A stretch of 64,000 nt of DNA from assembly GCA_051294375.1 (NCBI GenBank), contig CM119270.1:16690824-16754823 (forward strand). The letters run 5' to 3'. Below are positions 1-40,751 of this stretch, one piece after another. Each line of letters begins with the position of its first letter. Position 1 is the stretch's first letter. The position numbers and the translations under genes are program-made. This DNA is from Paraspadella gotoi (Eukaryota > Animalia > Chaetognatha). A model generated the notes under the pieces. That model saw only the letters and a list, made by a program, of their open reading frames with translations, did no database searches and had not been told where the DNA came from.

Positions 1-128
1 CGGAGCTTCTTGATCTCGGCGATTTCCATGATGGCGCCGATGTCGCCGACCGCGAGACCGAGGAGGAGATTCATGATGATTATGGGCATCACGACGAGGA
101 AGACCAAAAAGTAGAACGTGGTGAGAAC
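1..128 (-). CDS. TRPA-A exon: S6 and start of TRP-like helix
   Basis: Not in the ORF track. After acceptor cacag it reads VLTTFYFLVFLVVMPIIIMNLLLGLAVGDIGAIMEIAEIKKL. Confidence 0.93.
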
Positions 129-3100
129 CTGTGAAGAGTGAAGGTATTGAAGTGAATCAGAGCGACGTTACGGCAGTTGGACACAAACAGTAAGATCAAT
201 AAATTAACTGTTACAACGGAATTATATACTATAGGTTCTTAACTACCCTGCCCTCGTGCGCTATATATTTCAAAAGTGCCCATTTATAGCTTAAATTTAG
301 AATAAAGTAAGTTTTTAAGTTTAAATATTAGGTTATGGGTTAGGGATTAAGGGATTAAAGTAAGGAATGGGTTAAAACTATATTTGGTAAAATATTCGGG
401 TTAAATATTTTAGTAGAAATTAAGTTCAGGGATTAGCAACAGAAATTGGGCGCTTTTAGAAAACCGTGCCGTACCTGATCCGTCGTCTGTTGTTCTTTGA
501 AAGCAGCGAAAATGTGTCCATAGTCCAATTCGCCGACGGTCATGACGACGGTCTTCATCAATGAACCAACGGGATCGTCAAAAGACTCCAAAGATCTCTT
601 GCCTCTCAGCATGGAGTTGAAGGTAAAAGCGAAGCTGACAAAGAAGGGAATCAAGACGATGAAGATCTTGCAGAAGGTCTTCAGCACATGGACGAACATG
701 GAGACAAAGACTCCGACAAAGGAAAAATCACGCAGTTTCATGGTGACTTTGATCCAAGTGCTGAGAAGGCAGACGCTTCCAATTTGCCATTGCCACGGGC
801 AGACGAGGTGCTGTTTATGAAAAGTACAGTTTCGATCGAATTTTAAATATAAAAAAAAGCATTATTATTACTTTACCAACCGTTATATGAAATTGGTACA
901 AGCAATATAAAAATCATCCATTCGTTTAATAAATAAGCTATCTTGCCCTTGACTTTGACAGGCCTTTTGCGTTGGTTTAAGTCCTCATCACTCTTACAAG
1001 ATTAATGACATAGCAGCAGTCTCCTGCAAGCTTTCAATCAAGACTCTCTCACGGTCGAGTTTATTCACTCCAGAGTACCTGGCTTCCCTATCATGAAGTG
1101 GTATAATATTCAAAGAATGTTTCAATTGTATGAAAAGACCACTCCCTTAAGTATTAGATCGGGGAATACTTATTATTGTACTCCGCGCACTAGCATCAAA
1201 AATACAAGGAGCTGAATTTTATGAAATTGGTACAACCAATATAAAAATTATCCATTCATTTAATAAATCAACGCTATCTTGCCCCTGACTTTGGACAGGC
1301 TTTAGTTTATTGGTTTTAAGCTAATTTCGCATGAATATATGTACTCACCATCCCTGGACAATCTTCATTGTTGACCACAAAAAGGATGCTCAACAATGGC
1401 GTGACAACATCGAAAAGATTCTTCAATTCGAAATACTTGAATCGTCGCGTTAGTAACTGCGCCATTTCAATCAGCAGATGAACCCAAGCCAGCGCGAATA
1501 CCGCCCACTGCAGAAGCTCGGGAGAGACGCTTGTAGGGTAGCTCGCTTCGTATTCTCCGCGACACGACCCATTGGGAGCAAAGTAGGGGCAGAGTTCGGT
1601 GCAGTCGGTATAGTTGGTCAGATAAAAATCCCGCAAGCATCCGTAGTCGTGTATGGGCTTCGTGTAGGCAATAAGCAGCGTGATGGTCACCGCATAAGCG
1701 AAACCCACATAAAGGTTTAAAACATACATAAAGCGAAGCACGTTCCACTTGAGATCGAGGAGTGTCGTGACGAGCGGATGTTGGAGCAGCTCGTCACGAT
1801 TCAAATCTACGATCATCATCAAAGGATCGCGGGACTTTTTCAACCAACCCAAGCGCTTGGGAGGTGCAGCAGTGGTGGGTCGGGTGCCCCTCCCACCGAC
1901 GTCCTGATAAATGAAAACAATTTGCAGTCTTAAGATAAGAATTTTTTTAAATAGTTTTTAGTCCATTTTAATAAAGAAAATAAAACTAAATAAGAGCAAC
2001 ATCCCCCCAACAACTGTACTCCTCATCAACACAAACCTCTAAATCTACAAAAGCATCTTCTATCAGCTCATAGTTAAAGATAATGCTGTAGTCAATGTCC
2101 TAAGTGCCGTACATGCTTGTAAAATTCAAACACATTTGTTCATACGGCGGAGCGATCCTTCTTCCGTATCTTTTCAATATTTTTGTATTTTTTATTTTCT
2201 TTCTCTCTACTCCCATATCTTTTTTCTTTTTTTTTTATTTTTTATTTTTTTGCTTTATTTTCCTTTTTTCTTTTTTCCTTTAATTATCTTCTCCGATAGG
2301 CATATTCACCGCTCTTCCTATCGCAATAAATACCTGAGACCTTATGTGTCCCGACTCGTCCACCAAATCCCTCATACCTAGCTACTTCATCCATTCTCTC
2401 TCTCTCTCTTCTCTTCTCTCTCCTCTCTCTCTCTCTCCTCTCGTCTCTTACTTCTCATCGTCTCTCTCTCTCCTCCCCACTCTCCCGTCTTTCCCTCCCC
2501 CGACTCCCTCTCCTATCCCGCAACACAAAAGTTTTTGAATCAGGCTTAACGAAAATTGAATTTAAAAATAATTTCTTTCCATTAAAAATTTGTCTCTAAA
2601 AAATTTCGCTCCGCGCCGTTCTGCCATATTCTTTTTTTTTATCTTTCGAAGAGTGCGCGGGGAACCGAAGGCGCGAGTAGACCTTCGACTTCTCATAGTT
2701 TTTACAGTCTTTTTAACGTCTTTTCGTTTTCCCTTTACCTCTCAAAATTCGGGCCAGAAGTACCGCATTTTTTTATGTGGCGCGGTGGATGGCGACAGGT
2801 CTGGGGACTCAGATTTGCGCAGGCCGATTTTTGCTTTGCCGTCACCGTGCTCAGCGCTCCAGCTGCGAACGGAGTATGTCAGAGGCAAATGTTTATTGAA
2901 CTCTCGTTCTACTTGTTTACCCTTTCGATAATAGATTTCAATACATGCTTGGACCCAATATGGCTACCGACGCGCAACTCCGTTCACCGCCTTTCGTCAT
3001 CTTAATCCTGCCGTGCGTCGTCTAGTTATGAGTATTGCACGGGCCGCTAATCGTGTCAATCAAGATAAAATAAGTTGATTACCTACGTTTCAGCAACCTC

Positions 3101-6100
3101 GGGTTCGATCACTGAACGGCGAGGTTTAAGCGGATACGACATTGTTGCACAATCCCTCGCGTGGGAGAATAAGACATTTGAGTCCAACAAAAGTTATGTA
3201 GCGTTTAATAATAAACGAGAGTGAGTTAGTATCGGGAAAAGTGTCCGTCTATCTAATATATATAGTTAGAATTAGTTAAATTAGTTTAAATTTAGGTATA
3301 CCACCGCACTGCCGTTTAAAAAACTTTAAGCGCAATTTCCAAAATTTCCCTTTTTTTCGCTTTTATTGATGTCTTGCACAGGCGTAATTTTTGTTCGTTT
3401 AAACTTCTCTTATATAATTTTTCTCCCTTGTCTCGTCCGCTCCCATTCCTTGTCTTTTCCTAATTTTTTCCTTTTATCGCAATAGTCGCCCTGCGTTCCT
3501 CCGTATTTCTACCCGTGCTGTCTCCTTCCATCTTTTCCCTCCCCGCATCTTTATCTCCGCTCCCATTACAACACTGCCTCCGGCTTACATTCCCTCCTCT
3601 TTCTCTTCTCGTAGCATCTTAATCTCTAATCTCTCCCTTTCCTACATATAACTCCGCGAACCTCAATCCCTCTCATAATATTCTATAAACATAACGTCTC
3701 ATATGCACTAGCTGGGCTATGTACGTGCGTGTACTCTTTACTTTTATTTTCTATTTTGGAAAAATAAGTTTATACTTTTTTAAAAAATAATTAGTCCAAT
3801 TCTCTTAAAACTTTTTGTAAGGCTACTATAGCAATTATGTAGTTTCTATGTTTCTATCAGCCTACAACGATGGCTCTTCGAATCTTAAAAATGGGCACAA
3901 CTCTGTCGCTAAGTACCAGACCTTCATACATTACTCTCTCGGCCCAACGCCGACCGCCCGCCACGTTCGGCCGCTCCTCTAAGCCCAAAACATCTTGCCA
4001 CCTGGCGGCGGGTAAATCCTAGGCAATTCTGGAACCTCTCGAAACCAAAGCGTCTCTTGGTCTGCTGGCATTGATCTCCATCTGCTCTTTGGAGTACTGT
4101 GCATATTGACTAAATACGAAAACGCCCCTGTAACCGCGCGTCGGACCGACAGTTTCGCATTGAACGTCGCCCGACATTTCTGTTGGACATTGCGCTGCGT
4201 GATACTACGCTAGCCGTGTTATGATCATGATCGGCGAATCAGCATCATTGCATCGGTGGCCCGGCTCGCGTGGGGCGTAGTTTCACCGTGCTAACAGATG
4301 ATTTGGGACCGTGCTATCCGCCGGACAACTCTCCCCTTCCGTCATGAAAACAATGCCGCCTCGCATCATCATACACTTCCCATCGCAAACAAACGACCAA
4401 CTTTCCATGGCATCTCGTCCTCTTCATCCCATCGTCACACGCTTGTAGGCTTATCACCGCGACCGTAACAAGCTGAACAATCCGCCACCGCAATGAACAC
4501 GCTTGCGGATGTGAATGCATTGACTTGCCCTCATCTCAAGCCTCGCGCCTCACTATGTGGCACCTCCCTTGCACTCACAAGTTCTGCACGAAATGATCGC
4601 ATTCACGCGACCGCTTGCACTGCTCTGGCGGCGTTGGTTTTGCGCCGCTATGATTATTGTTCAGTTGCCTTTGTCGTCTCATGCGACGACCGATGCTTTA
4701 TGCGATATCGCCTATCCCTGGCCATATGTGGTGACCTCGCGCGCATCCTTACCCTTTGTCCACATACAGACAGCTCTCTCTACGCATTTCACTGTGGGAC
4801 TCATTCCCAATTTTTTTCTGATAGTCGAAAAAACGGTTCGCTTCCTCGATTCCATGGCGCGTCAGCGCAAATCTTTGACCTCTCAGCCTACTGCTCGCGC
4901 ACCACCCTACATGCCGATTTCTCACGCTTGCAGCAGAAGGATAACGTCATAAGACGTGCCAATTGCTAATTTCCAAGCTAGAAGATATGGGCCAAAGCAT
5001 CACGATACTGGCAGTGACCTAATCTCTTTGTAACTTGCTCGAGATAAGAGGCGATTTCGCGTTTGCTCAAATTCTTTTCTTTTCTCTTAATTCACCTCAA
5101 TCTTTAGTATAATTTAACCCACTCTCTCTTTAAAACCACGTTACCCTATCTTAACGCCCTTCTCCCCTTCTGGCCTCTTGTTGAAATGCTCCTCGGGCAC
5201 ATTGACCACATCTCTGTGCTCTGATCACATTATTGCTCTCCACCAGAACAGCTAGATGCGACATCAACGGCGCAGAGAAGTCCTCGAAAGAACGTGACTT
5301 CAGATGGAACGCATATATGTTCGTCTGTTGGATATGCGCGTTGGAGAACAGTGCTAATTCACCACGGCACGTACAGTGAAGTGGCTTAGAACAGTATACT
5401 TCGCTAATCCTTTAAATTCATACTTAACACCACATTATTCGTTATTATATTTTTTAAACATACTAGCCTATATGTAAACTATTGACCTTATCCTTTTCCC
5501 TGCATTCCAGGATCATTCTCTGGTGCCAGTGGTGCAGTTCTGATCTGCCTATGATACTACCTAGCTTAGACTCTCTCCTCTCTGGTTGGCCACGCCCATG
5601 GCGCCATCTTAAATCATGCCCCAAATTCCGGATCTCGCGCTTTTCAAGTCCGGTTACTATGTCAATATGCTCTGTCCGTGGAATCTCAAAGCCCTCCGTA
5701 CGACTTAGCGACGGACATTGTACATACAGTTCTCAATNNNNNNNNNNNNNNNNNNNNNNNNNGGGCTTTGGATTCCACGCAGCATTTGTTAAAGACTTGA
5801 AGCGCGAGATCCGGAAATTTGGTGATAAGATGGCGCATGGGCGTGCCACCGGAAGAGTCTACTGTGTACATAGCAGTCTGCCACTCCGTGTCCTGATGCA
5901 AAGTAAGGTCAATTAGTTTACATATAGCTAGATTTAAAAATATAAACGATAAGGTGTTAAAAGTAGATACCTTTACGAGTAATTCCACGACGTCGTGGTG
6001 ATTGTTCTCCAACGNNNNNNNNNNTTCGTCCATAGACACAAGGCACTGAACAATATCTAGGCGGCCAAACCACGCCGCCCAGTGCAGCGGCGTGAAGCCT

Positions 6101-7242
6101 TCGTGCATCTTGGTGCAGCCATTGGCGCCAGCCTTGATGAGCAAGTCCATCATCTCCGGCGTTCCTTCCGCGGCGACAAAGTGCAATGAAGAACAACCAA
6201 AGTTGTTTTGATGATTAACCATTGTTTTCAGACGGTCCGGCGGGATACGGTCCAAAATCATCTTTAGCACGGTGAAACAACGCCCCACGGCGGCCACCAT
6301 CAATATGCTATTGCCGATCATATCAACGGCAGCTATATCCGCACCAATGTCCAACAGAAATGTCGCGACTTCAATGCGACTGTGTCCGACGGCGGTTCCA
6401 AGGGGCGTTCGTTTTATCATATCTCCAGACTCCAAAGCAGATGGGTAATCAGCGACCAAGCGCTTGGTTAATTCCAGATTGCCGATTTCCGCCGCCAGGT
6501 GCAAGATGTTTTGCTTTAGAGAGCCGAACGTGCGGGCGATCGGGTTGGGCGAGAGACGTTGTATGAATCTGTCTTGCTGCAGAGTTGTGCCAGTTTTAAA
6601 GATTCGAAGAGCCTCGTTGTAGCTGATAGAACATAGAAACTACATAATTCTATGTACCTTCAAGAAAGTTTTAAGAGAATTCGACTAATTATTTTTAAAA
6701 AGTATAAACTTATTTTTCAAAATAGAAAATAAAGAAAGATCACGCGTCTCTAGCCAAGCTAAGTAGATGAACTTGTAATCTAAATTTTAAGAGAGACAAA
6801 AATAATTACAATTTATTTAAAATTAATCTCCGAAAAGATATAAACCTTGTATGCGGAATAAGATCAATGCCCGACCTAGTATCTTAGACCCATAATCTTA
6901 TGATACTCACCCCGCTTCACACGAATTCTCCTCCACGATCATATGGGCCCGCCTCAAATCCACGGCCTTCGTCGGCGGCGGACTGGGGGCGACGGAGATC
7001 AACGACCGCTGGCTGCTCCGCTGCGACTGGCCGCATCTCCCGTTTTTGCTGTCGACGTTTCTGTCCGGGCATTCGCCGCAAAAAGTTCTCTTTCTGATGC
7101 AATCGATAAATTCCAAGACAATTGCGAGGCAGACAATTGCGATGGAGGCCGAAACGGCGTCTTCGTATGTAGGGGACCGCATGTGTTCCACGAAGGATGA
7201 TTTTCGTGTGATGTTTTGAGCGGTTGTGAACGGTTGCGACAT
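1..7242 (-). CDS. TrpA: TRPA-family ankyrin-repeat cation channel, paralog A (multi-exon, 3' end runs off the window, interrupted by a chimeric block at ~2000-5737)
   Basis: Exons joined by GT-AG sites: 7242-6911, 6622-5971 (10-N gap), 5892-5763, 1903-1349, 810-475, 128-1. They encode ankyrin repeats (LHLAAEIGN, TPLHWAAWFG), pre-S1 (ELLQHPLVTTLLDLKW), S5/pore (MTVGELDYG) and S6/TRP-like helix (MPIIIMNLLLGLAVGDI), all TRPA hallmarks. Confidence 0.93.
475..810 (-). CDS. TRPA-A exon: S4, S5, pore helix and filter
   Basis: aaacag|HLVCPWQWQIGSVCLLSTWIKVTMKLRDFSFVGVFVSMF...MTVGELDYG...TDQ|gtac. Confidence 0.92.
887..1130 (+). repeat. Dispersed short repeat family (SINE/MITE-like), copy 1
   Basis: Core aattggtacaaccaatataaaaattatccattcatttaataaataagctatcttgcccctgactttggacagg also at 1218-1318(+), 9660-9800(-), 15978-16095(+), 34250-34430(-), 39914-40140(+), 49975-50190(-), 55140-55320(+). 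Confidence 0.85.
1349..1903 (-). CDS. TRPA-A exon: pre-S1 to S3
   Basis: tatcag|DVGGRG...RDPLMMIVDLNRDELLQHPLVTTLLDLKW...NNEDCPGM|gtgagt; three hydrophobic segments. Confidence 0.92.
2095..3660 (+). repeat. Insertion-rich noisy copy of the 24.4-27.4 kb (reverse) / 28.2-29 kb (forward) segment, lying inside a TRPA-A intron
   Basis: 2521-2610 matches 28226-28300; 3001-3190 matches 28571-28710; 2281-2400 matches the reverse complement of 27140-27240. Confidence 0.8.
3665..5737 (+). other. Noisy inverted duplicate of the TRPA-A ankyrin exons (5763-6790); probable raw long-read or fold-back artefact
   Basis: 3761-3900 is the reverse complement of ~6575-6725, and 5461-5695 of 5763-5930, with dense single-base insertions that destroy the frame. 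Confidence 0.85.
5763..5892 (-). CDS. TRPA-A exon: linker after the ankyrin domain
   Basis: catcag|DTEWQTAMYTVDSSGGTPMRHLITKFPDLALQVFNKCCVESK, preceded by a 78-nt intron at 5970-5893. Confidence 0.88.
5971..6622 (-). CDS. TRPA-A ankyrin-repeat exon(s); the N gap at 6015-6024 hides about 3 further repeats
   Basis: tatcag|YNEALRIFK...NILHLAAEIGNLELTKRLV...TPLGTAVGHSR...SSLHFVAAEG...TPLHWAAWFGRLDIV...LENNHHDVVELLVK|gtatct. Confidence 0.92.
6911..7242 (-). CDS. TRPA-A N-terminal exon with hydrophobic segment (frame stays open to ~7354, so the true start may be upstream)
   Basis: Ends in donor G|GTGAGT; SLISVAPSPPPTKAVDL aligns with paralog B SLVSVTPSPTPPTGPIDL. Confidence 0.8.
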
Positions 7243-8533
7243 ATTGTGAGCGGTTTCGAGCTGTTTAAGATCAGTTATAGGCCGTGATAATTTGTTGTAA
7301 GCAGACGCGAACTGTTTTTGAGCTTCTCTGATTATTTTTGAGAACTGGTAATGATTTATACTAGCATTTTTTTTTTTTTTTTTTTTTTGGAGAAGAAATC
7401 CTTTCGCGGTTTCTTCTTATGCCACTTTAAATATCGAATGACGATTTCGATCTGAAGTTTTCGATCTCAAATTCTAATCTTCGGAAGGAGATCAAACGTT
7501 AACCCATGACTCATGACTCAATGACTCCTCATCGTTTCTCTTTCTTCATTAATTCTTTCCTCGTCGCACGATTATCGGTTTTTAGTTCTCGAGTTTAAAA
7601 ATAAATATTGATTTTTTTTNNNNNNNNNNNNNNNNNNNNNNNNNNNNNNNNNNNNNNNNNNNNNNNNNNNNNNNNNNNNNNNNNNNNNNNNNNNNNNNNN
7701 NNNNNNNNNNNNNNNNNNNNNNNNNNNNNNNNNNNNNNNNNNNNNNNNNNNNNNNNNNNNNNNNNNNNNNNNNNNNNNNNNNNNNNNNNNNNNNNNNNNN
7801 NNNNNNNNNNNNNNNNNNNNNNNNNNNNNNNNNNNNTAACGTGGAGCTCCATTAGAGTTAAGTTTAACAAATAAATTATTTTTACTAAAAACGTCATTGT
7901 TTTTTCATAAAAAAAAATTCAAATCGTTCAAGTAACTTTTATTTGGCTAACTAAGCTTTAAAACGGAATTTAGATGTTTTATTATTGATACATGATCACT
8001 GATCATTGAACCGTATTGGCGGAAGATTGGATCGGATTGGATTGCTCAAAATTTCCCTGTCAAAATCTGACAACATTATCCTTTTCTGTTCTCTTATTTC
8101 ATCGGATGATAATCTAACCCAAAATCGTAAAAAACTTAATTAAAACTACAGAAACAAATAAACCAAAAGGTTATACATCAAAAAAATGATGTATTTTCAT
8201 CTTGGCAGGTTTATTGCGCGGGAAAAACACGAAAGACGACAAGAGAAAGTATTTACGGAACAGAAAAAAGAAACATCTAAAACATGTAAAAGTTTAAAAA
8301 TTGAGACNNNNNNNNNNNNNNNNNNNNNNNNNNNNNNNNNNNNNNNNNNNNNNNNNNNNNNNNNNNNNNNNNNNNNNNNNNNNNNNNNNNNNNNNNNNNN
8401 NNNNNNNNNNNNNNNNNNNNNNNNNNNNNNNNNNNNNNNNNNNNNNNNNNNNNNNNNNNNNNNNNNNNNNNNNNNNNNNNNNNNNNNNNNNNNNNNNNNN
8501 NNNNNNNNNNNNNNNNNNNNNNNNNNNNNNNNN

Positions 8534-8776
8534 GCGCACATGACCATGTTCAACTTCTTCTGCATGACGGCCACAGATTCGTGCACCTGATTTATTTGCT
8601 CTTGCGTCGCGATTATCTGCACCTCCTTTTCGTTTTGCGTGATTCGTTCGGCGCCGCCGGCAACGGCGTTCAGTTTGGCGCTGAGTTTCCGCGCGGCGCC
8701 GGATTGGATGCTGAGGCCCATGCGGAGTCTGGGTTGGAAGAGGGGATCGACATACTGATAGACAGACAGAAAGATT
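8534..8776 (-). CDS. TRPA-B C-terminal coiled-coil exon
   Basis: gacag|RIFLSVYQYVDPLFQ...EKEVQIIATQEQINQVHESVAVMQKKLNMVMC; heptad pattern; phase matches the upstream donor. Confidence 0.75.
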
Positions 8777-11700
8777 CTGTCAGACAGACAGATTAACAAC
8801 CAGACTGAAAGAAAGACAGATAAATAGATAGAAAATTAAAAAACAGATAGACATAAAACAAACTTGAAAGAAAGACAGACAGTTATAGTGCCAGAAAGAT
8901 ATCAGCTCAACTCATTCTCAAACGTTTGATTAGCCGAGAGCTCCAATCAACAATCTGGCCTCCCAATCAGTCTTACCCCAACCTCACCCCAATCTCACCT
9001 CAACTCATTCTCAATCGTTCAATTGGGCTTGAGCTCGTGCTGTCCACCAAACAATCTGGCCCCCCACTCAGCCTTACCCCAACCTCACCCCAATTTCACC
9101 TCAACTCATTCTCAAACGTTCGATTGGGCTTGAGCTCGTAGTGCCCGCCCAACACTCCGCCCTCGCAATCGTCACAGTCGATGTTCCACAGCTTGAAGTA
9201 GAGCCATTCCTGCANNNNNNNNNNNNNNNNNNNNNNNNNNNNNNNNNNNNNNNNNNNNNNNNNNNNNNNNNNNNNNNNNNNNNNNNNNNNNNNNNNNNNN
9301 NNNNNNNNNNNNNNNNNNNNNNNNNNNNNNNNNNNNNNNNNNNNNNNNNNNNNNNNNNNNNNNNNNNNNNNNNNNNNNNNNNNNNNNNNNNNNNNNNNNN
9401 NNNNNNNNNNNNNNNNNNNNNNNNNNNNNNNNNNNNNNNNNNNNNNNNNNNNNNNNNNNNNNNNNNNNNNNNNNNNNNNNNNNNNNNNNNNNNNNNNNNN
9501 NNNNGAATTAGTAATGGATAGAAAGAGATAGAATAGTAGATAGAAGATAGATAGGTAGTAGATAGAATAGAATAAGAGATAGAAAGAGAGAACAGAAAGA
9601 AAATGAAACAAATATGAGCTCAAAGAATAACAAACAAAACAAAATTAAAAATAATATATAAGCTTGCAGGGACCTGCTATGTCATTATCTTGTAAGAGAG
9701 AAGGAGGCCTTAAACCACCAAAGCTGGTCCAAAGTTAGAAGCAAGATAGCTTAGTTATTAAATGAATGGATAATTTTTATATTGGTTGTACCAAATTTCC
9801 TACATCAAATCAATCAATCACCTCTTACCTCTGCCACCTCCTCTCCCATGCCGCATACCTTATCGGACAACTGCTGCTGCTTGAGCGCGTTGAAGAGATT
9901 CCCGTAGTCCAACTCCCCCAGCGTCATGACGATGGTCTTCATGACGGCGTCGATGGGTTCGTCGAAGGCGCGGACGAACTCGTTGCCCCGCAGCATCGCG
10001 TGGAAGGTGAAGGCGAAGCTGACGAAGAACGGGACGAGGATGATGATGATCTTGGAAAAGGTCTTCAAGACGTGGACGAACATGGAGACGAAGACGCCGA
10101 CGTAGGAAAAGTCGCGGAGCTTCATCGTTACCTGGGTTGGGGAGTGAATGATTGATTTNNNNNNNNNNNNNNNNNNNNNNNNNAGATCGACGTGGGGGTG
10201 AACATGTTGATTTGGATTATTGGACTTTGATTGGTTGATTCCGGCTTTTACTTCATATACTCTATTACATTTGATACTCGCGATAGCATAGAAATGTCTG
10301 CAATATGCGACCAGTTGTTACTGTTCTATTTGATTGGATCTTGATCTCATCTAACCTTGCATTCATTCTATTAGTTATTCAGCTCACTCAATTCCTTCTG
10401 TTGCTTTATTTTTCATTTTGACTCTGTTGTTTTATTCTTGCTTTATTTCTCAAGACGAGCAGCGATGATCTAATCCAAACATTTAATTTACCGTTGATAC
10501 CCATCACGCAATGCAACTATACGGCACCAGACACTGATCTGTACCCAGTGCCGGTTACTGACCAAGGGCACATGATCATATATTATCCGAACAAAACTTC
10601 CATGTGCTGTGAAAAGGGAGCCGCTGGGATGCAAAGGAAGCTCGGAAACCAAGACAGTCGACACAGGTTCGGAAAATTTTAATATATATTAACGCCTCGT
10701 TAAAGTTTGTAATTTATTTGTCGATTAGATTACCCTAAGGTCCAGGTAACCTGGTAACATGACATCATGCCACATACATCGGATAAATTATTGGTATTCA
10801 GTTCAGCATCACTCTAACTTTCATCTATATTTCATTCCAGAAAGTTCATTCTAAGTCTGTCTCTACGGCATTTAATACACTTTTGCTCTACTTGTTGTAA
10901 TGAATTTTATACTCTGATGGCCGTACGAACCTATACAGCCCGAATACTTCGAAACACCCTCGGTTAACAACACGTGGACGGCCAACCTCGTGACGACCGA
11001 ATGTGATCAGACGCCAACGGCGGAACCAACGCTGGGAAGCGTGCTGGCCACTGGGCAGCAGCTTATCGACTATGGAGAGCGCGGGCACTCGGGCCAAAGG
11101 CCTCCATGAAGTCCGGCCCGTCAGTGCTACGAGCCAATTGGTCGCGAACGCGGGCCAAACTGGTCGGAGCAGGGCTGGAAAGTTGCCGCCGATCGCGTAG
11201 AGGCTCGAGGCGAAAGAGTAGTTGTAGATACAGGTTTCGACGGAAGAGCCAACCATCCACTAGGGTGAGTGATCATGAGCGCTTAGGGAATCCGCCGCCA
11301 GGTTGAGCAGTAGCTCAGAAAGGGTTGCGAGAGGCGGAAGTCCACTTGCGATTTAGCGAGTGAGAGTCGTATGACCGAGTAGGATTGCCGCCTTGCAACA
11401 GCTCGTCGGCGCTAGTTCCAGGGTCGACGAGATGAGCTTGGAGTGGATCCCGTCTTCTTGCCAACCTACGCGGGGTTTCTCTGGGCCGCATTGGGACATG
11501 TCCCTGAGACTTTGCGAGACGACTTACCATATGATAGCTTAATATTTACTTAGTTCGATAATTACTAGATTTGTGTAATATGATTGCACTGTAACTTTGT
11601 TGTCATTTCGGAATTAAATGTATTTTCGGTAAAATACATGCTCGACCTTATGCTGAGGCTATCAGTATACGATTTACCCACTCTTATACCTCAATCTACT

Positions 11701-14700
11701 GCCACTACTAGAGGAGTCGGATTCGATATGCACCTTATACTAATTAATTCGATATCTCTCAATGTGATGATATGCTCCATCCCTGTCTCGGGTATGATTC
11801 CTTATCTGAATCTGTAAGTTTTCCATTTTCATTCTGCGACAACCAAACGAACGCTTGTCCAAGCACGCGAAAGTATTCTGGCTCCTAACTGACAGATTCA
11901 TAACACATTTGTTTAAAAGAATTTTCATTCGCGATTCTGGCATTGGTGGAAAATTTGTATTCCCTGTGACATCAATACTTCTTAGTCTTTCAGTTTTATT
12001 TTACTACTTATAATCACAGGTTTGTTCTCTCCAGACGTTAAGCCCTAACTGGGCAGTCTGATCGTGTTGAACCAGCACGCTGCATATTACATTGGAATTT
12101 CACTGAACATTATCAAAGAGAAGACTAGCAAGGGTCTGAAAAGAATAACAAGCCCACACTGCGCGTAACAAAGTTAAAGCCGACAACAACTCGACGCTTG
12201 CCTTTCACTTCTTTCTTCTCCTCCCTCTCATCTTCTCTCCTTTCTGACAGTATATTCTATCTAACGTTGGTCCGCCATCAGACAAAATGAGTGTTACTAT
12301 CAAACATACGTTATGTGGTTAATGAGAGAAAACTAGTCAAACATAAAACAGGCGCTTAGAAACTCGTAGAAACGAAATTTCAGACCTGACGATCTGATCG
12401 GTCCATAAACAATGAAACGTTCTTTGGATTTAAAACAGTCGATTCAAACTCAGCGAAAAGTTTCTATAAATGAAAATCTTCCCCAGATCTGTACTAAGAT
12501 TTTAAATAAAATACATTATTTTCGACTGAATGGGACCTGTGAAGGATTAATACTCTCTTAAATCCTTTCTAATAATTCAGTTATGAAACATCCATTTCTG
12601 TAGATGTTCTGTAGAGTATTTCTGTACAGGAGATTCGACTGTTAGGTCTATCGTAGGTCTAGCTAATTAGACCAGTGATTCGATCATGAGACTCGAGCAA
12701 TCCACATCAACGCGACGGACCGGTGTAGACGACGCGAATAGTTCTGCAGTTCTCTTCTCTCTCTTTCTCCTCCCCTCATCATCTTCTCACGGGACTTCGG
12801 CGGTCGCGGTTCAAGTTGTAGGTCCCAGTCCATTTGCGTCCTGTGGGTCTTCGAGATCTTTGCTGCTCTCCATTTTTGAAAATTTATAACTACATTTTCG
12901 ATATAAGTATAGTCCCAATTGTCAATACTACAATTTTATTCTCTCCCCATTCCCTTTCCGTTTTGCGTAAGCACGTCAGGACCAGTAGGCTTAGCAGTTC
13001 CTTTTCACGTTAGAGACCAAGAGCTAGTTATTGATCTAGAAAATACGACAGTACAACAGACGGTGGCAATCAAATACAATTTTCGGCTCGCATTTAACAT
13101 AGTGCATCGGATCGGAGAGGTAAGGGCAGACTATAAATCCTGGCTGGATTGGAACGCATCCTTTCATCATTGGGCTGGTGCATTTGTCTCCTGGCTAATA
13201 GTTAGTGGCATTCTGCTACTCGGGGGGGAATACTCGAGTCGTCGATCCGGTTTGTTTGAGTTTTGAGCTTCTTGCGTAAGACATTAATTTTTTCACTTGA
13301 GCAGAACATAAAAAATTGTAAAGTTTTCAGGGAATATTACCTTTTTTTTCTTTTGTGAAGGTGTACGATGAAGTCCTTGTGGATGCGTGTTTGATACGGT
13401 GTCGTAAAAGTCATATCGTCCATATAAAGAGTTCCACAGTCGCATAATCGGAGCCTTTCCGGATATGCGTCCAACGCTCAATATGTCCCTGACACAAGGC
13501 GATCGTAGCAGAGTCCTTCTATCTTGACGCCGGGTCCATTTTTTTTATCTCGAGGGTTCTACGGGAAGTCGAGAGGAGATTGTTCTTGGTCTGTCAAAGT
13601 TGAATTCGTATTTTTTCGCTGACTCACTCAGGAATCCGGTCCCATGGAGCGGCATGATGACAAGATCCGGCCAAAGGACAATGAGTGTTTGACGTCGGCG
13701 ACTGATCGAGCGCTTGAGAAGTTGGCCGATTTGAACGTTGAGCTTTTGAAGGCAAGTCAACTTGGATTGGGCGACCGATGTTGCAATGTAGCGACGATGG
13801 ACGATGAAGCAGATGGCAAAGGGACTGATGGCGATACCATCGATGTAGTGATCAGCCGCACGCTAACTGAAGCAACCTTTTCCTGAAGACTTTTCGTATT
13901 TCTTGGCGTGATTACAGATTCTCTTCGAGGACAGAATAACCCCTACCTCCCTCATATTATGTCACAATCATCAAATCCTCCCTCAACCACCCTCANNNNN
14001 NNNNNNNNNNNNNNNNNNNNNNNNNNNNNNNNNNNNNNNNNNNNNNNNNNNNNNNNNNNNNNNNNNNNNNNNNNNNNNNNNNNNNNNNNNNNNNNNNNNN
14101 NNNNNNNNNNNNNNNNNNNNNNNNNNNNNNNNNNNNNNNNNNNNNNNNNNNNNNNNNNNNNNNNNNNNNNNNNNNNNNNNNNNNNNNTCGACTCCTGGCA
14201 GCACTTGCCGAAGACCAGCAGGGCCAGCTCGGGGAACTTGGTGATCAGCTGACGCATCGGGCTGCAGCTGCACCGGTCCGAGGTGTACATGGCCGATTGC
14301 CATTCGTCGTCCTNNNNNNNNNNTCGTACTTATAAAATAAATAAATAAATTATTTTTTTTTAGAATATATTTTAGTAATAAAAAAATCGTTGATTAAAAT
14401 AGTAAATCAAACCTTATAGCAAACTATCAATCGGAAAATCAAGCAATCAAATACTAATCATTTAATCAAAATGAATCGATTAACCAATTATTTAATCGTT
14501 ATTCCAATCAATCCTATTCAGAGACATTACTATATCAATTGATGAATGAATCAAATAGATAAATGAAAGAATGGATAAATGTCGAATTTCCCAACTCGCC
14601 TTAACAATGATCTCCACCACATCCCTGTGATTATTCTCTAAAGCGAGAACGAGGCAATTCCTTCCTTGAGCGTCTCTCTCTTTAAAGATCTCTTTGTCTT

Positions 14701-17217
14701 TGCGCATCTTGACTGTGGAGAGGAGAATCTCCACGATGTGGTCGTGTCCGGACTCGCAGGCTAAGAAGAGGGCTTTGGTGGGGACTGGAAACGATTGTGG
14801 ATTGAGGTAAATATTAATGTAGGAAAGATACCGTTCGAATCTCCCTCGCGCTAACCCCAACATTCTAAAATAAGTCTCTTCATTGATAAATGTAACGTTG
14901 AAGTAGCATTTGGAAAACAAATGAGCAGAAAACTTAAGTAAATGACCTTCTTTAGTGACATTTTGTACGCTTTTAGTTTTANNNNNNNNNNNNNNNNNNN
15001 NNNNNNNNNNNNNNNNNNNNNNNNNNNNNNNNNNNNNNNNNNNNNNNNNNNNNNNNNNNNNNNNNNNNNNNNNNNNNNNNNNNNNNNNNNNNNNNNNNNN
15101 NNNNNNNNNNNNNNNNNNNNNNNNNNNNNNNNNNNNNNNNNNNNNNNNNNNNNNNNNNNNNNNNNNNNNNNNNNNNNNNNNNNNNNNNNNNNNNNNNNNN
15201 NNNNNNNNNNNNNNNNNNNNNNNNNNNNNNNNNNNNNNNNNNNNNNNNNNNNNNNNNNNNNNNNNNNNNNNNNNNNNNNNNNNNNNNNNNNNNNNNNNNN
15301 NNNNNNNNNNNNNNNNNNNNNNNNNNNNCCGGAAGTAACTTGCAGGTGGCGCGCGAGTCGAGGACGTAACACTTTTGCGCCAAAAAGAAACCGACGACGC
15401 CGACTTGGTCGTAAAAGGCCGCGGTGTGGAACGGAGTGTCGCCGGCGTCGTTTACCACTTCCATCAGGCTANNNNNNNNNNNNNNNNNNNNNNNNNNNNN
15501 NNNNNTAAAAGGCCGCGGTGTGGAATGGAGTGTCGCCGGCGTCGTTCACCACTTCCATCAGGCTGAGCGGGGTGAGTTTAGGTAAGGTTAAGATATGAGN
15601 NNNNNNNNNTATCATGCCTTTCGCATCTTTTCTCCTCCAAACCTCTTCTCCCGATCCACGAGGCGTTTGACGATGTCCAGGCGACCGTTCCACGCGGCCC
15701 AGTGGAGAGGGGTGTGCCCGTCCAACTTCTTGGTCCACCCGTCGGCGCCGGAGTCAAGCAGCAGCTGCAGCATCTCGGGCGAACCCTCTGCAGCGGCGAA
15801 GTGCAGGGAGGTGCAGCCGAAGTTGTTCTGGTGATTGACCAGCTCGGGCAAAACGGCGACGTCGGCGTGGTTCAACACCTTCTTCAAGACTCCGTAGCAT
15901 CTGGGAAAGCGGAGGAAGATATTTATAATAAATAATATATTATTTACAATAATTTTCAAGTGAAAGGGCACATGACTTTTTATGAAATTGGTACAACCAA
16001 TATAAAAATTATCCATTCATTTAATAAATAAGCTATCTTGCCCCTGACTTTGGACAGGCTTTGGTGGTTTAAGTCCTCCATCATGTTATTTACAATATGA
16101 TTTACCATTTACTCGATACAAAATAATTTAGTATTCAATTGACTCGCGACTACAACTTAACTGAAATGCATCAATTCATTGTTTAAAATAATCAATATGG
16201 AAGGCCATCAGAAGAGTTACATTCTAATTTGCTTCCGTATCTATGACAACGTGAAGGTATTAACCAGTCACAAATCAGCCATCAGACTTTTGTTTCTGAT
16301 TATACAAAAAATTGATAATTCTATAGAAATTCCATAACAAAAAAATTCGACAATAGAGATTAATCTCTTCAATATGCAAATAAGATTAAAACATTTTTAA
16401 ATCAACTTTGTCACCTGGCAACGGCACCGATCATCAAGACGCTGTTTCCAATATCGTCTTGTGACGCTATATTGGAGCCGGCCGCCAATAACGCCTTCAC
16501 CACCGCGGGTCGACTGTGGGCCACCGCTACGCTGAGTGGCGTGTCGCCACATCTGTCCCGAACCTAACGAACATAATAACTAACGGTTCCTTTTTAAATC
16601 AAATGATTAAATTAAAAGGTTATTAGCCTACTTTAGTTCATACTATAATCTCATCTTAAATACTTATCCCGCTCTGGAGTAATCCCAAACCCTTCAGCAC
16701 CTTGACCAATGGTCATCGTGCCAAGTGCTCACCTCCAACTGATTCGGGCATTCCCTGATCAATCTCTTCGTCAACTCGAGATTCCCGACTTCGGCCGCCA
16801 CGTGAAAGATCGTGGATCGATCCGGTCCGAAGGTCTTGGCGCAGACGTCGGGGGCGAGGCTGTCGAGGAGAGCCGTGTGATCCTCCGAGGATTGTGACTT
16901 GGCCAGACGGAGGATCTTCCTGTGCTCCTCCCTCTTATCGTCATCCTTTGACATCGCGACGCCGCACGTCAAGTCTATTGGACCGGTTGGCGGCGTCGGA
17001 CTCGGCGTCACGCTCACCAGCGAGGATTTCGTGCTGGAGCTGGAGAGGCTGTGGACTCCGGAGAAGACTCGACCGCCGCCGCTGGAATCGACGCCGCCGT
17101 CGCCGTAGTGAACGTCGCTGCAGCTGCTCCGCCGCGGCCGTAGGCGACGTCCGCCGCGGACGCAGCGGAAGACGTGGAAGGCGACGCTGACGACGAAGAG
17201 AACGGCGACGGCGATGG
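8534..17217 (-). CDS. TrpA: TRPA-family channel, paralog B (multi-exon; start, S1-S4, S6 and stop are in gaps or missing)
   Basis: Exons 17217-16733, 16563-16415, 15900-15643, ~15469-15329, 14784-14600, 14311-14188, 10131-9859, 9213-9100, 8776-8534. Colinear with and homologous to paralog A (e.g. MKLRDFSYVGVFVSMFVHVLKTF; MTLGELDYG). Confidence 0.92.
8907..9140 (-). repeat. ~95-100 bp tandem repeat (2.4 copies) made from an exon 3' end plus its splice donor
   Basis: ctcaactcattctcaa recurs at 8906, 8999 and 9100; acaatctggc..ttaccccaacctcaccccaat recurs twice. Confidence 0.85.
9100..9213 (-). CDS. TRPA-B exon after the TRP-like helix
   Basis: EWLYFKLWNIDCDDCEGGVLGGHYELKPNRTFENEL|gtgaa; the KPN resembles the TRPA 'YPN' motif. 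Confidence 0.7.
9859..10131 (-). CDS. TRPA-B exon: S5 and pore
   Basis: cccag|VTMKLRDFSYVG...MTLGELDYGNLFNALKQQQLSDK|gtatgc; highly similar to 475-747. Confidence 0.92.
14188..14311 (-). CDS. TRPA-B linker exon
   Basis: ag|DDEWQSAMYTSDRCSCSPMRQLITKFPELALLVFGKCCQES. Confidence 0.88.
14600..14784 (-). CDS. TRPA-B exon with the last two ankyrin repeats (GC donor)
   Basis: ttccag|PTKALFLACESGHDHIVEILL...QGRNCLVLALENNHRDVVEIIVK|gcgagt. Confidence 0.88.
15329..15562 (-). CDS. TRPA-B ankyrin exon (its start appears twice across a gap)
   Basis: LMEVVNDAGDTPFHTAAFYDQVGVVGFFLAQKCYVLDSRATCKLL. Confidence 0.85.
15643..15900 (-). CDS. TRPA-B ankyrin exon
   Basis: cccag|CYGVLKK...NHQNNFGCTSLHFAAAEG...GHTPLHWAAWNGRLDIVKRLVDREK|gtttg. 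Confidence 0.9.
15978..16095 (+). repeat. Dispersed short repeat family copy in a TRPA-B intron
   Basis: Near-identical to 1218-1318. Confidence 0.85.
16415..16563 (-). CDS. TRPA-B ankyrin exon (not in the ORF track)
   Basis: gttag|VRDRCGDTPLSVAVAHSRPAVVKALLAAGSNIASQDDIGNSVLMIGAVA|gtgac; 149 nt, phases fit both neighbouring exons. Confidence 0.9.
16733..17217 (-). CDS. TRPA-B N-terminal exon: hydrophobic helix, Ser/Pro linker, first ankyrin repeat
   Basis: Open frame from the gap: IAVAVLFVVSVAFHVFRCVRGGRR...SLVSVTPSP...STIFHVAAEVGNLELTKRLIRECPNQLE|gtgagc. Confidence 0.87.
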
Positions 17218-33535: not shown

Positions 33536-36500
33536 CTTTTTTTCATTTCCTTCCATCTTTCCCCTATTTTTCTCCATTAGATTCCCGACCTTCTCTCGGT
33601 CATCTCGCTCTCTCGCCTCTCGTCGCTCTCTCGCTCTCTAGCTCTCTTTTTTTTCGCTCGTCTATTTTCTTTGAAGACATTCAAAGAGAGGAACTCAAAG
33701 GAACGCTGAGAGAAAAAAGAAAGTTTAAAAAAAGGAAAAGAAAAAAGAGAAGAAAACACATCCAGGAGTTTTTTTTTGACCTTTCGCTTCTCGAAGTCAC
33801 TCACGTTGCTGAGTCGCGGTGTGAAACGAATGATTGGTGATGATGATGATGGGGAGAGGAGGAGGAGGAGAGGAAGAAGAAGATTAGATTCCAGAAGACA
33901 TTGACAAACGACTATCAAGAAAATAAACGCTTGTATCGAACATTAATTTCGGTTTCGCTACTAACTTAAAGTTCTTCTCCGTCCTGTCTAAACGGAACGA
34001 CGTTCGTTACAATTTATATACTAAAATTAACATTTATACACATAATATACATCATATATAGATTTTTTTAAAAAAATTTTTACCCTTTAATAAGGGAGTT
34101 AAACTTTAAAATTTGTGACATTCTGTTTATCATTACCTAATACTCTTTATTTAGGTTTTTCATTAATCTCGGCTATGTGTTAAAGTTTAGCTCAAACATG
34201 TAATTTTTAAAGAATTTTTCAAGATTCGTTTTTTATAAATTATATAATGTTCATGCTCTCTTGCGGGTTAATACTCTAGACTGTGATAAAGAGGTTTATT
34301 AAGAGCTTGAAGTGTTCATCTATTGAGGCTTTAATTTACTGTTGCTGTCCAAAGTCACGAGCAATATAGCTTAATCATTGTAATAATAGATAATTGTTAT
34401 ATTGGCTTTACCAAATTGATAAACAATATACGATTTTCATCTCCATCTACTTCCATATCTTGTATTTAACATCCATCTGCACCTCCCATCTACACCTCCC
34501 GTCTTACACCTCCCGATCGCATCTCAGCCTCTGTTGACCATTCTCCATCATTCAGAAATTCCGTCCATACGCTGCTGTCAGACTGCGAAAGAAAAAAAGT
34601 TGGCTGACTTGGCTTTGAAACAAAATTTAGAGATAATGATGGAGAAGAAACGAAGCAGAAAAAGCAAAAAAAAACGCATTGGTTCTATTCTAATGGAATA
34701 AGCAATAGTGCGTAAAAAAAGCAATAATTTCTGCATAAGGAAAATGAATTCCATAGTGCAACGTTTGCAAAGAAAGTAAATATAGCGAGGCATCGAACAA
34801 TATAAGTTAATATGTACGTTTATCAAAAATAAATCGTTAGTTGAAACAAATGTGTTCAAACTTTTTCTAGGACTATATCAAATTAATTTATTTGCTCAAG
34901 GTTCACCCGATTTCTTTTCTCGTTCCACATCTTGTTGCCTCTCCTAGAAATGCGCAGTCGAGTCATATACTTGGGGTCAACGTTTACTCACAACAACAAC
35001 GACGACGACGACGACGACAAGGGACGGAATAAGTCGAGCCAGTCTCTAGAGAAAAGTAAAATGTATCGACCAAAGGATATGTAAAAATGGAACGAGAATC
35101 TGAAACGTCACAACGGACAACAACCAATCAGCGGCACAATGACATTGTAGCAACGAGAAAGATTCTACGTTCGGTCCAGAAATTTATTATTGTTGTTCCA
35201 TTTACTTGCGATCTCATTAAATAAATTGCATAAAAGAATAGGAAGAATTCCGATATTAACCAACAAATCTACTCGATCGTGTTTAACAGAGTGCAACAAC
35301 GGACACCGAACAACAAACAACGAACGACAAAGAGGCAAAGAGGCCGCTTGAAGCTGGAAAAAAGACGAGAGCGCTAAAAAAAATTCCGCGATTTTTGTTT
35401 GTTCGTGGTCATATTTGGCGGCCATATTTTGTCGGGGGCCACATTTCGAGAGCTGAGTCCGTATAAACTCGGTCGCCAGGATTCGGAGTTTGTGGCCGCC
35501 GTTTTTTTTTCTCCAATATCTGCGGCAAACGTGTGAGAGGGGTAGGAAACGGATGTAAACGGTCGGTAACGGAGAGGTAAGTCGAATCGGATTCTGTCCT
35601 GGTAAGGGATTCAAGCAGAGATTAAAGAGATGAAAACGAGGCTGGCAAAGAGATTCTTCATCCTTAAAATTCGCATCAGTATCCGTTGTTGTCTATCTGT
35701 CGTTGTTCACGTTATCCGAGCTATTGTTACTTGTCTTTGATTGGTCATCATTTTTCTTGTTCATTGGCATTTTGTCGTCCGTCTTGCTAGTTTATATGCA
35801 TCGTCTGTCTTTGTCGTACAATGTTCGTTGGTTTTTTTTATCGTTGTCATCGCTATGTTGTCTTTGTCGTCAATTGTCGTTGTCTTCGAAGTTGTCTTTG
35901 TCGTGGTGTTCTTGTTCGTGGTCTTCGTGGGTCAAATGCACAGCTGATTGCAAAAAAAATCTGCATCCGCCAAAATAAAAAAGAGGCTTACACTGTCATG
36001 AAGCCGCTTCCACGTGGGCCTCCACTCCAATAAGCGCGCTTCTTCCACAGCAGCGCCAGTTTTAGTCCGACCGCCCACGCCCCCGTCGCCGGAAGCGCGA
36101 GCCGGCTGGCTCGTCTTTGACCGGTCGAATGAAGGAGCGGAAAATCTCAGACGAGAAAAAAAAAAACTTTGTTGCGGTGTTTTTGCCGCCGCTTCAGAGT
36201 CGACGAAGGCTGACAAAATGTAGCTTTCGAGTTCAAACAAAAAAAGTCAAAAATTTAGTCAGATATTTTTATTCTTTTATCTTCGCTGAAGATGGCTTCT
36301 GGAATACTCAACCTAATAATTCTTAAATTATTCAAAATAATTAATTAAAAAAATATTTTTTCGTAAGCTCAGAATATCGATAAGAAAAACGATCTCTTTG
36401 TTAGAATCTATCATTGATTAAACAATAAGAAAACAATTGATCATTAATTATTATTTATCCCACCCTGGTTCGAGAAGCCCTCGACTCCCACCGTGTTGGA

Positions 36501-36849
36501 CCGCCGGTTTACTTTCAAAGCGTGCACGGGTTGCATTAACTAAGTTTGTTCTTGAATTCCTTCTTTTATTATTTGCGAACCTGAAACGCGTCGGGAAATA
36601 AATCGATGAAGCCTAAAGGAAAGATAAATTGCTTTGTTTTACTTGGAATCAATACCTGACCGCGTTTGATTCATTTCCCTTTTTTTTGGATGGCGTACGG
36701 GGGGGCAGTCCTCAGTTTCGTCGTCTTTATCTCCGAAAGGTCATTCTTAAGAATTGGGAGAAAGACGCCTCAAAAATTAATATATCAATAACTTTAGAGA
36801 AAATATTTTGACATCGTGGAATTTCCTTTCGTCTTCGTGTGATTTGAAT

Positions 36850-37025
36850 TAGTAGAAGAAGTTTGGAATTTTGTTTACAACAACGATTTTATTGGTACAT
36901 AGGGCACGTACATGTTTCGGCTTTAATTTACAAGCCTTCTTCAGCGCCATAGAAAAACATGTCGTACGGTTCCCTATGTTGTACAATAAAATCGCTTGTA
37001 TGTAAACAAGTTCAAACTTCTTCAC
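36850..37025 (-). ncRNA. Minimal type-I hammerhead ribozyme motif (36900-36950) inside an inverted Penelope-like pLTR fragment
   Basis: Minus strand: ggcg CUGAAGA a GGCUU-guaaauua-AAGCC GAAAC au GUA cgug, followed by AATAAA; the flanks 36853-36917 and 36955-37023 are inverted repeats. Confidence 0.7.

Positions 37026-40692: not shown

Positions 40693-40751
<59 letters not shown>

What the first reader, a model, noticed from the sequence alone, without database searches (positions are those of the whole stretch)
17140..17217. Both TRPA paralogs carry a conserved extra transmembrane-like helix N-terminal to the ankyrin domain (putative 7-TM 'S0' TRPA)
Seen: extending the paralog B ankyrin frame 66 codons upstream of the listed ORF gives IAVAVLFVVSVAFHVFRCVRGGRR. 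Paralog A has AVSASIAIVCLAIVLEFIDCIRKR (~7090-7160) at the same position. Both are hydrophobic stretches ending in C-[IV]-R plus basic residues, followed by a shared VDS..GR motif and an SL.SV.PSP linker, although the surrounding sequence is otherwise poorly conserved. Established: characterised TRPA channels have 6 TM helices and a fully cytosolic N-terminus. Inference: basic residues on the C-terminal side predict an N-out anchor that would tether the distal end of the ankyrin stack to the membrane, which could matter for mechano- or thermo-gating; the juxtamembrane Cys could be palmitoylated. I do not know of a described TRPA with this architecture, but I cannot search.
Basis: partly seen in the sequence, partly recalled or inferred. 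Interest (0 to 1): 0.8.

Follow-up and report, generated by a model that had tools for sequence, protein, structure and literature searches.

The report
TRPA channels with seventh membrane helix
Two neighbouring genes of an unidentified animal encode TRPA1-type sensory ion channels in which a shortened ankyrin arm is preceded by an extra water-repelling helix that is predicted to cross the membrane and would tie the normally free end of that arm to the membrane, a layout absent from the other TRPA proteins examined here.

Summary
Observation confirmed; interpretation partly supported. Two tandem, expressed, divergent TRPA1-type genes (A, B; minus strand) each carry a hydrophobic segment 64-80 residues ahead of the ankyrin stack. 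The segment is very likely translated. In B it shares a reading frame and an RNA contig with the first ankyrin repeat. In A a GT-AG intron joins it in frame, gap-free with B over 222 residues. The linker between segment and ankyrins is conserved as protein (0 of 5000 shuffles).

Hydrophobicity (KD19 2.27 and 2.39) equals that of S5. Of 68 TRPA-like proteins, one reaches 1.8, and it is a fused gene model. A's short N-tail carries an N-glycosylation sequon; Cys and basic residues follow the helix. The ankyrin stack is shortened, starting near human TRPA1 residue 304.

Limits: the two helices share properties rather than significant sequence similarity. A's pure hydrophobic core is only 15 residues. 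B's start codon lies in an assembly gap. No RNA joint links A exon 1 to exon 2. No relative with an intact N-terminus was found. The linker is disordered, so a stiff gating spring is not supported.

Best reading: an N-out 'S0' anchor acting as a soft leash (0.6). New variant of a known kind.

The parts
17156..17215 (-). Paralog B hydrophobic segment (candidate S0), ending C-V-R; its start is cut by the N gap
   Evidence: KD19 2.39; helix 2-24 at pLDDT 80-86; GC3 0.95 like B's S5 exon 0.93; RNA contig covers it from 17200 down
17120..17155 (-). B polybasic cluster and second Cys (Cys32)
   Evidence: 7 K/R and 0 D/E in the 19 residues after the core; Cys aligned with a Cys of A
16925..17119 (-). 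B Ser/Pro-rich disordered linker with VDS..GR, SL.SV.PSP and an internal Met at 16954
   Evidence: pLDDT under 50 over most of residues 23-86; homologous to A's linker
16733..16924 (-). B cap helices and first ankyrin repeat, same exon as S0
   Evidence: RNA contig 16750-17200
17218..17476 (.). Assembly gap (259 N) hiding B's start codon and N-tail
14189..16563 (-). B further ankyrin and pre-S1 exons (16415-16563, about 15643-15900, 15341-15470, 14601-14791, 14189-14311), interrupted by N gaps
   Evidence: GT-AG ends of introns 1 and 2; Pfam Ank
8534..10131 (-). B S5-pore exon (9859-10131) and C-terminal exons (9101-9214, 8534-8728)
   Evidence: spliced RNA joint 8728-9100
7159..7242 (-). Paralog A start ATG (7242) and 28-residue N-tail with the sequon N10-I-T12
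   Evidence: first ATG inside the RNA-covered part; sequon; the RNA allele changes T12 to S and keeps the sequon
7087..7158 (-). Paralog A hydrophobic segment (candidate S0) with C-I-R-K-R
   Evidence: KD19 2.27; helix 26-50, pLDDT 94 over residues 31-40; RNA contig 6951-7322
6911..7086 (-). A linker with an internal Met at 6942; exon 1 ends at 6911
6623..6910 (-). A intron 1, 288 nt, GT-AG, phase 2
   Evidence: in-frame join, gap-free with B; no RNA joint seen
5763..6622 (-). A ankyrin exons (gap at 6015-6024; intron 5893-5970)
   Evidence: Pfam Ank; best stretch maps to human TRPA1 304-466; spliced RNA joint 5891-5970
1..2099 (-). A channel exons: 2037-2099, S1-S3 1349-1903, S4-S5-pore 475-822, S6 1-128; the gene runs off the window
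   Evidence: RNA contigs 473-786 and 1349-1735

Best explanation
Both genes encode TRPA1-type channels whose N-terminal half of the ankyrin stack is replaced by a hydrophobic helix and a flexible linker, and that helix likely crosses the membrane as a seventh, N-out 'S0' segment that would leash the free end of the ankyrin arm to the bilayer. Inferred steps: (1) S0 is read as a reverse (type III) signal anchor, so the roughly 28-residue N-tail goes outside and can be glycosylated at N10. (2) The Cys-basic-Cys stretch fixes the cytosolic exit and may be palmitoylated. (3) The 64-80-residue disordered linker runs to the cap of about eight ankyrin repeats. (4) S1-S6 insert as in any TRPA. With both ends attached to one membrane, the linker would act as a soft leash that restrains the ankyrin arm and helps place the channel. 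A stiff force-transmitting spring is less likely.
For: Shown: TRPA1 identity of S4-pore (all 9 PDB hits are TRPA1) and of the ankyrins. S0 and the first ankyrin of B are in one frame and one RNA contig. A's intron 1 is GT-AG and in frame, giving a 231-residue alignment with B that has a single 1-residue gap and 113 identities. The linker upstream of the internal Met is conserved as protein: 13 of 21 aligned residues identical, 7 of those 13 by different codons. Of 5 RNA-versus-genome differences in A's exon-1 coding part, 3 are silent and 2 conservative (T to S keeps the sequon, S to A lies in the helix). KD19 is 2.27 and 2.39, against S1 1.95, S5 2.24 and S6 2.78 of the same protein; A's core is not amphipathic (moment 0.13). 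1 of 68 TRPA-like proteins with 40 or more residues before the first detected ankyrin reaches KD 1.8, and that one is a 3636-aa fused model; the next best is 1.55. Predicted: a single isolated helix followed by disorder in both models. Weak: language-model neighbours of A exon 1 are small single-pass membrane proteins (influenza M2 and NB, TMIE, SMIM5-like; scores 0.86-0.91, recognition 1937, below the 2300 mark). That M2 and NB are N-out signal anchors is recalled.
Against: A's pure hydrophobic core is 15 residues and is followed by Glu and Asp (His and Arg in B). A's C-flank is net neutral over 15 residues (3 K/R, 3 D/E). The two helices show no significant sequence similarity (1351 of 5000 shuffles). 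B's N-terminus is in a gap. No RNA joint links A exon 1 to exon 2. One RNA contig carries 127 nt of B intron 1, so unspliced RNA, DNA or a downstream start is present in that run. All RNA evidence comes from one run of one study. The nearest relatives are fragments without N-termini, so conservation beyond this genome is untested. Predictors over-call helices in TRPs: crayfish TRPC and NompC were scored at 8 (PMC13483504 Table 1).
Confidence: 0.6

Rival explanations
1. The helix is translated and binds the membrane but does not cross it. It lies in or dips into the inner leaflet as a short hydrophobic plus amphipathic, probably palmitoylated anchor, and the N-terminus stays cytosolic (six TM plus a monotopic anchor).
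For: Short core (15 residues in A); polar or charged residues at i and i+3 right after it; high hydrophobic moment of the C-terminal turns (1.37 and 1.35); two aligned Cys around a basic cluster.
Against: A's core has a low moment (0.13) and S5-like hydrophobicity. The sequon sits 19 residues before the core and survives an allele change, though this is one paralog and one substitution.
Confidence: 0.17
2. The main protein is an ordinary six-TM short TRPA that starts at the internal Met just before the ankyrin cap (A 6942, B 16954) or from a downstream start site. The S0 form is a minor or tissue-specific long isoform.
For: Both paralogs have a Met within one residue of the same place. An RNA contig runs into B intron 1. 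N-terminal isoforms of different length are known for Drosophila Painless (PMC3266251, abstract).
Against: The linker upstream of that Met is conserved at protein level with synonymous divergence. In A the only in-frame ATGs upstream of the linker also lie upstream of the helix. RNA contigs run unbroken through helix and linker in both genes.
Confidence: 0.11
3. The hydrophobic runs are incidental: low-complexity, fast-evolving N-terminal sequence that happens to be hydrophobic and has no anchoring role.
For: 44 of 403 stop-free stretches in the window reach the same hydrophobicity, and helix similarity is not significant. B's codons are rich in GTC, a common repeat unit in this DNA.
Against: Both paralogs have it in register, with only 27 of 60 nucleotides shared and different codons. 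It is absent from 67 of 68 TRPA-like N-termini. An exposed segment this hydrophobic would be expected to engage SRP anyway (general knowledge).
Confidence: 0.07
4. The segment is a cleaved signal peptide or processing site, or exon 1 of A belongs to a separate small membrane-protein gene.
For: No RNA joint for A intron 1. Small stand-alone single-pass proteins are the nearest language-model neighbours of A exon 1.
Against: In B the segment and the first ankyrin are one exon. A's join is in frame and colinear with B. Basic residues follow rather than precede the core. A cleaved signal would send the ankyrins to the lumen, against TRPA topology (general knowledge).
Confidence: 0.05

Closest known systems
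TRPA1 (human, PDB 6V9V/6PQQ/9MOE; Drosophila, PDB 7YKR)
   Same: S4-S5-pore region matches only TRPA1 chains in the PDB (9 of 9 hits). The ankyrin exon's best stretch maps to human residues 304-466. S1-S6 are present in A.
   Different: The stack starts near human residue 304, so about the first half is missing. In its place are a hydrophobic helix, a Cys/basic stretch and a disordered linker. Identity to named TRPA1s is about 30% over the channel domain.
Unnamed ENA TRPA1-like fragments (P0001, P0002, P0005, P0006, P0024, P0085 and cluster mates)
   Same: They form one clade with A and B (11 rows, SH-like support 99, FastTree) and are the best BLAST hits (33-34% for the top three).
   Different: All lack the ankyrin region and N-terminus, so whether they have S0 is unknown. 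Branches are long, and no member carries a name.
BK (Slo1) potassium channel S0 helix (recalled, not tested)
   Same: An extra N-terminal N-out helix ahead of a six-helix channel core.
   Different: BK's S0 lies a short loop before S1 and packs on the voltage-sensor domain. Here several hundred cytosolic residues, including the ankyrin stack, lie between S0 and S1. No homology is claimed.
Small N-out single-pass proteins (influenza M2 and NB, TMIE)
   Same: Short N-tail, one helix, juxtamembrane Cys and basic residues; nearest by language-model features (weak).
   Different: They are stand-alone proteins; here the module is fused to a channel. No sequence homology was found.
NOMPC/TRPN tethered ankyrin spring (recalled)
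   Same: The idea of an ankyrin stack fixed at its distal end.
   Different: NOMPC has about 29 repeats and tethers to microtubules with no extra helix. Here there are about eight repeats, and the tether would be to the membrane through a slack linker.

Membership tests
TRPA family (TRPA1-type) | S1-S6 channel domain most similar to TRPA1 | tested here: met
   Ion_trans; 9 of 9 PDB hits are TRPA1; most named homologs looked up are annotated TRPA1 homologs. B's S1-S4 exons are missing from the assembly.
TRPA family (TRPA1-type) | N-terminal ankyrin repeats | tested here: met
   Pfam Ank and Ank_2; 7 local-profile matches in the B model, 2 of them very weak, with gaps in the assembly
TRPA family (TRPA1-type) | Placement within a named TRPA subclade | tested here: inconclusive
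   FastTree of 104 rows groups A and B only with unnamed fragments; no non-TRPA outgroup; midpoint root; long branches
TRPA family (TRPA1-type) | Tetrameric cation-channel activity; electrophile-sensing cysteines | not testable with these tools
   The pre-S1 exon alone gave no PDB hit to align the cysteines
Canonical six-TM TRPA1 architecture | No membrane segment ahead of the ankyrins (cytosolic N-terminus) | tested here: not met
   By hydropathy and fold prediction only; topology not measured
Canonical six-TM TRPA1 architecture | Long stack (about 14-17 repeats) | tested here: not met
   The first repeat maps near human residue 304; many full-length hits show 12-15 detected repeats
Type III (N-out) signal anchor | Hydrophobic core near the N-terminus with a short N-tail | tested here: met
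   A: 28-residue tail, KD19 2.27. B: core present, tail hidden in the gap.
Type III (N-out) signal anchor | Positive charge on the C-terminal side | tested here: inconclusive
   Clear in B (7 K/R, 0 D/E). In A the C-flank is 3+/3- and the N-flank 2+/3-.
Type III (N-out) signal anchor | Not cleaved; N-tail outside and glycosylated | not testable with these tools
   Sequon at N10 in A only; no signal-peptide or topology predictor available
BK-type S0 | S0 packs on the S1-S4 domain | not testable with these tools
   See Tried and rejected

The most novel reading that the evidence does not exclude
A, B and their unnamed relatives define an unrecognised seven-helix TRPA1 clade in which the distal half of the ankyrin stack was exchanged for a built-in, TMIE-like membrane anchor. 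The ankyrin arm becomes a membrane-to-membrane spring that couples bilayer deformation to the gate, possibly for vibration sensing in an arrow worm.
Probability: 0.15. Interest if true: 0.85.

Novelty: new variant of a known kind. Interest (0 to 1): 0.6.

Why it matters
Group 1 TRP channels are described as six-helix subunits with both ends in the cytosol (passages of PMC12980990, PMC13483504 and 10.64898/2026.06.15.732245). A natural TRPA with an extra N-out helix would be an exception. It would also offer a direct test of a long-argued question: whether fixing the free end of a TRPA ankyrin stack changes thermal or mechanical gating. Delete or swap the helix, vary the linker length, and record. 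Surveys that filter on predicted topology could discard such proteins, so more may be hidden. At present it rests on two paralogs in one genome.

Tried and rejected
No whole genome is held, so further paralogs could not be sought.

Homolog searches: the S1-S3 exon found 0 of 533 candidates and the S4-pore exon 1 of 36. The ankyrin profile returned 457 of 7997 scored candidates; the 120 listed were generic ankyrin proteins, and none matched the pre-ankyrin part. The metagenome scan gave 7 loci, all distant and none with an informative N-terminus. Pfam and PDB know nothing like A exon 1. The Atlas search with B exon 1 saw only ankyrin features.

Complex prediction of A's S0 with A's S1-S3 exon gave 'no answer' (score 0.00; alignments not used; partner fold uncertain); it is not counted either way. 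The first tree run did not finish and was replaced by FastTree. One in-script join of B exon 3 was one base off and was corrected. Runs X2 and X3 gave only short chance matches, and no RNA cover was found over A intron 1's junction or beyond 17200; blanks prove nothing.

Literature: ten searches listed no paper whose title, abstract start or read passages describe a TRPA with a pre-ankyrin helix. One search listed 20 of 9,300 papers and none contained 'chaetognath', so it says little. Supplements were not read (for example abalone Table S2 and the choanoflagellate domain tables), and most subscription papers are not in the library.

Rejected: that the helix is an ankyrin cap (a separate cap helix pair exists and the helix is predicted apart from it); that it is the pre-S1 elbow that inflates TM counts in TRPC and TRPN (it lies before the ankyrins; that the elbow lies after them is recalled).
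Full report
Setting. The window is repeat-rich animal DNA with many N gaps; no whole genome is held. Two genes lie in tandem on the minus strand, B (17217 to about 8534) and A (7242 to beyond position 1). The S4-pore exon of A matches only TRPA1 chains in the PDB (9 of 9 hits). The ankyrin exons match Pfam Ank families. In a FastTree of 104 rows, A and B are sisters (support 96) inside an 11-row clade (support 99) that otherwise holds only unnamed ENA fragments.

The observation. The regions before the ankyrins are homologous (score 69, 0 of 5000 shuffles). That signal comes from the linker (64, 0 of 5000), not from the helix plus basic stretch (20, 1351 of 5000). Anchored on C-[IV]-R, the two segments share 27 of 60 nucleotides and 3 of 20 residues (an Ala, the Cys and the Arg), yet both stay hydrophobic, with polar residues at the same two positions. 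A second Cys after the basic cluster also aligns.

Is it translated with the channel? In B the segment, linker, cap helices and first ankyrin repeat form one stop-free exon, and one contig of run X1 covers 16750-17200 without a difference. X1 is RNA by inference: it holds GT-AG joints in both genes (8728-9100 and 5891-5970). In A the segment lies in a separate exon. Its 288-nt GT-AG intron joins in frame and gives a 231-residue alignment to B with a single one-residue gap and 113 identities, with no gap at the junction. No RNA joint over that intron was seen at this low depth. Both genes have a Met just before the cap helix, so a short form is possible. However, the linker upstream of that Met is conserved as protein (13 of 21 residues identical, 7 of them by different codons), and in A the only in-frame ATGs before the linker also precede the helix. 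The RNA copy of A exon 1 differs at 6 places: 1 lies before the ATG, 3 are silent and 2 are conservative. Against a clean reading, one X1 contig includes 127 nt of B intron 1, and all RNA evidence is one run.

Is it a membrane helix? The best 19-residue Kyte-Doolittle means are 2.27 (A) and 2.39 (B), against 1.95, 1.68, 1.49, 0.88, 2.24 and 2.78 for S1-S6 of A and 1.86 for the most hydrophobic ankyrin stretch. A rough insertion-energy sum with a recalled scale ranks both as favourable as S5; it is not the published predictor. AlphaFold2 gives one long helix (A 26-50, pLDDT 94 at its centre; B 2-24, pLDDT 80-86) followed by a disordered linker, then the cap and ankyrin helices; overall confidence is low (pTM 0.30 and 0.40). 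B has 7 basic and no acidic residues after the core; A is weaker (3 and 3) but has an acidic N-flank. A's 28-residue N-tail holds its only pre-ankyrin sequon, and the RNA allele (T12 to S) keeps it. Language-model neighbours of A exon 1 are small single-pass membrane proteins, below the tool's recognition mark and so weak. The main doubt is length: 15 purely hydrophobic residues in A, then an amphipathic turn (moment about 1.35 in both). That fits a short TM continued along the interface, but also a helix that only dips into the inner leaflet.

Is it common? Of 189 TRPA-like proteins held, 88 had detectable ankyrins and 68 had 40 or more residues before the first one. One of the 68 reached KD 1.8: a 3636-residue fused model whose hit is a channel helix of an upstream unit. 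The next best was 1.55. These 68 are not independent (several shrimp isoforms), some may be truncated, and they are only the best 150 of 574 hits plus cluster mates. The closest relatives lack N-termini, and no search recovered one. In print, 16 of 17 crayfish TRPAs were scored six TM and one four (PMC13483504, section 16 read). All abalone TRPs except TRPP1 were scored six (PMC12980990, passages). Passages of the choanoflagellate preprint, the cephalopod survey and the TRPA5 paper give the six-helix plan. Ten searches listed no description of a pre-ankyrin helix; supplements were not read.

An addition. The ankyrin stack is short. Its first repeat maps near human TRPA1 residue 304 (best stretch 304-466), and seven repeats are detected in the gapped B model, two of them very weakly; about eight is my estimate. 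So the helix and linker stand where roughly the first half of the canonical stack would be. Ankyrin position by best stretch is approximate, because the repeats resemble one another.

How it likely works. Shown: gene structure, expression, frame, hydrophobicity, rarity. Inferred: S0 inserts as a reverse signal anchor, the N-tail is outside and glycosylated, the Cys-basic-Cys stretch grips the inner leaflet, and S1-S6 insert normally, so the ankyrin arm is attached to the same membrane at both ends. The linker from the anchor Cys to the cap is 64 residues in A and 80 in B. By a hand estimate from recalled polymer scaling this is 24-30 nm fully stretched and about 5-6 nm relaxed. It can reach the tip of the arm but would pull only weakly. 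I therefore favour a soft leash that restrains the arm and helps target the channel over a stiff gating spring. The ankyrin domain is not always needed for gating: the abstract of PMC3266251 reports a nearly ankyrin-less Painless that rescues mechanical nociception, and the search listing of PMC9576766 reports gating of human TRPA1 without its ankyrin domain. A gating role therefore cannot be assumed.

Verdict. The feature is real and probably a seventh helix (0.6). The nearest rival is a non-spanning anchor (0.17), which would still be unusual, so some kind of membrane anchor ahead of the ankyrins has about 0.75. It is a new variant of TRPA1-type channels, so far seen in two paralogs of one genome. 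Interest 0.6.

Noticed in passing
window 7520-8062, + strand: An X1 contig (depth 4.65) is spliced on the + strand (GT-AG, 7857-7973) and points away from A's start. It may be a divergent non-coding RNA from A's promoter, which would make the ATG at 7242 the true start. Low depth, one contig.
   Followed up: partly
window 3670-5694: An inverted, indel-rich copy (71-80% identity) of A's 5763-6795 region lies inside A's large intron. It is likely a noisy long-read gap fill or fold-back, possibly a decayed inverted duplicate; it stops short of exon 1.
   Followed up: partly
window 10184-14187: B's S1-S4 exons are not in the assembly. An X1 contig of 1624 nt maps 277 nt to B's S5 exon and continues 5', so the exons are probably lost in gaps rather than deleted.
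   Followed up: partly
window 6623-6910 versus 16564-16732 and 15901-16414: The paralogs have different introns in the N-terminal region: A has one before the cap helix that B lacks; B has two inside the ankyrins that A lacks.
   Followed up: partly
window 16415-16690: An X1 contig carries 127 nt of B intron 1 with 3 substitutions and 10 gap letters: retained intron, DNA, or an alternative start that would skip S0 and the first ankyrin.
   Followed up: no
window 15410-15565: The start of one B ankyrin exon appears twice around a 34-N gap, probably an assembly duplication.
   Followed up: no
window 35165-54732, - strand: Several fragments of divergent ligand-gated-channel (ionotropic-receptor-like) genes appear in tandem; 1 of 4 pieces tested hit Pfam Lig_chan, at 51695-52311 (E 1.7e-6).
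   Followed up: partly
window 890-1300, 9660-9800, 15980-16080, 49960-50200: A short dispersed repeat sits in introns of both genes and is very abundant in run X1 (depth in the thousands), likely a SINE- or MITE-type element.
   Followed up: no
L005:16-3892: A metagenome contig encodes a very divergent TRPA-like protein with a long N-terminal region of degenerate repeats and a frameshift near S5.
   Followed up: no
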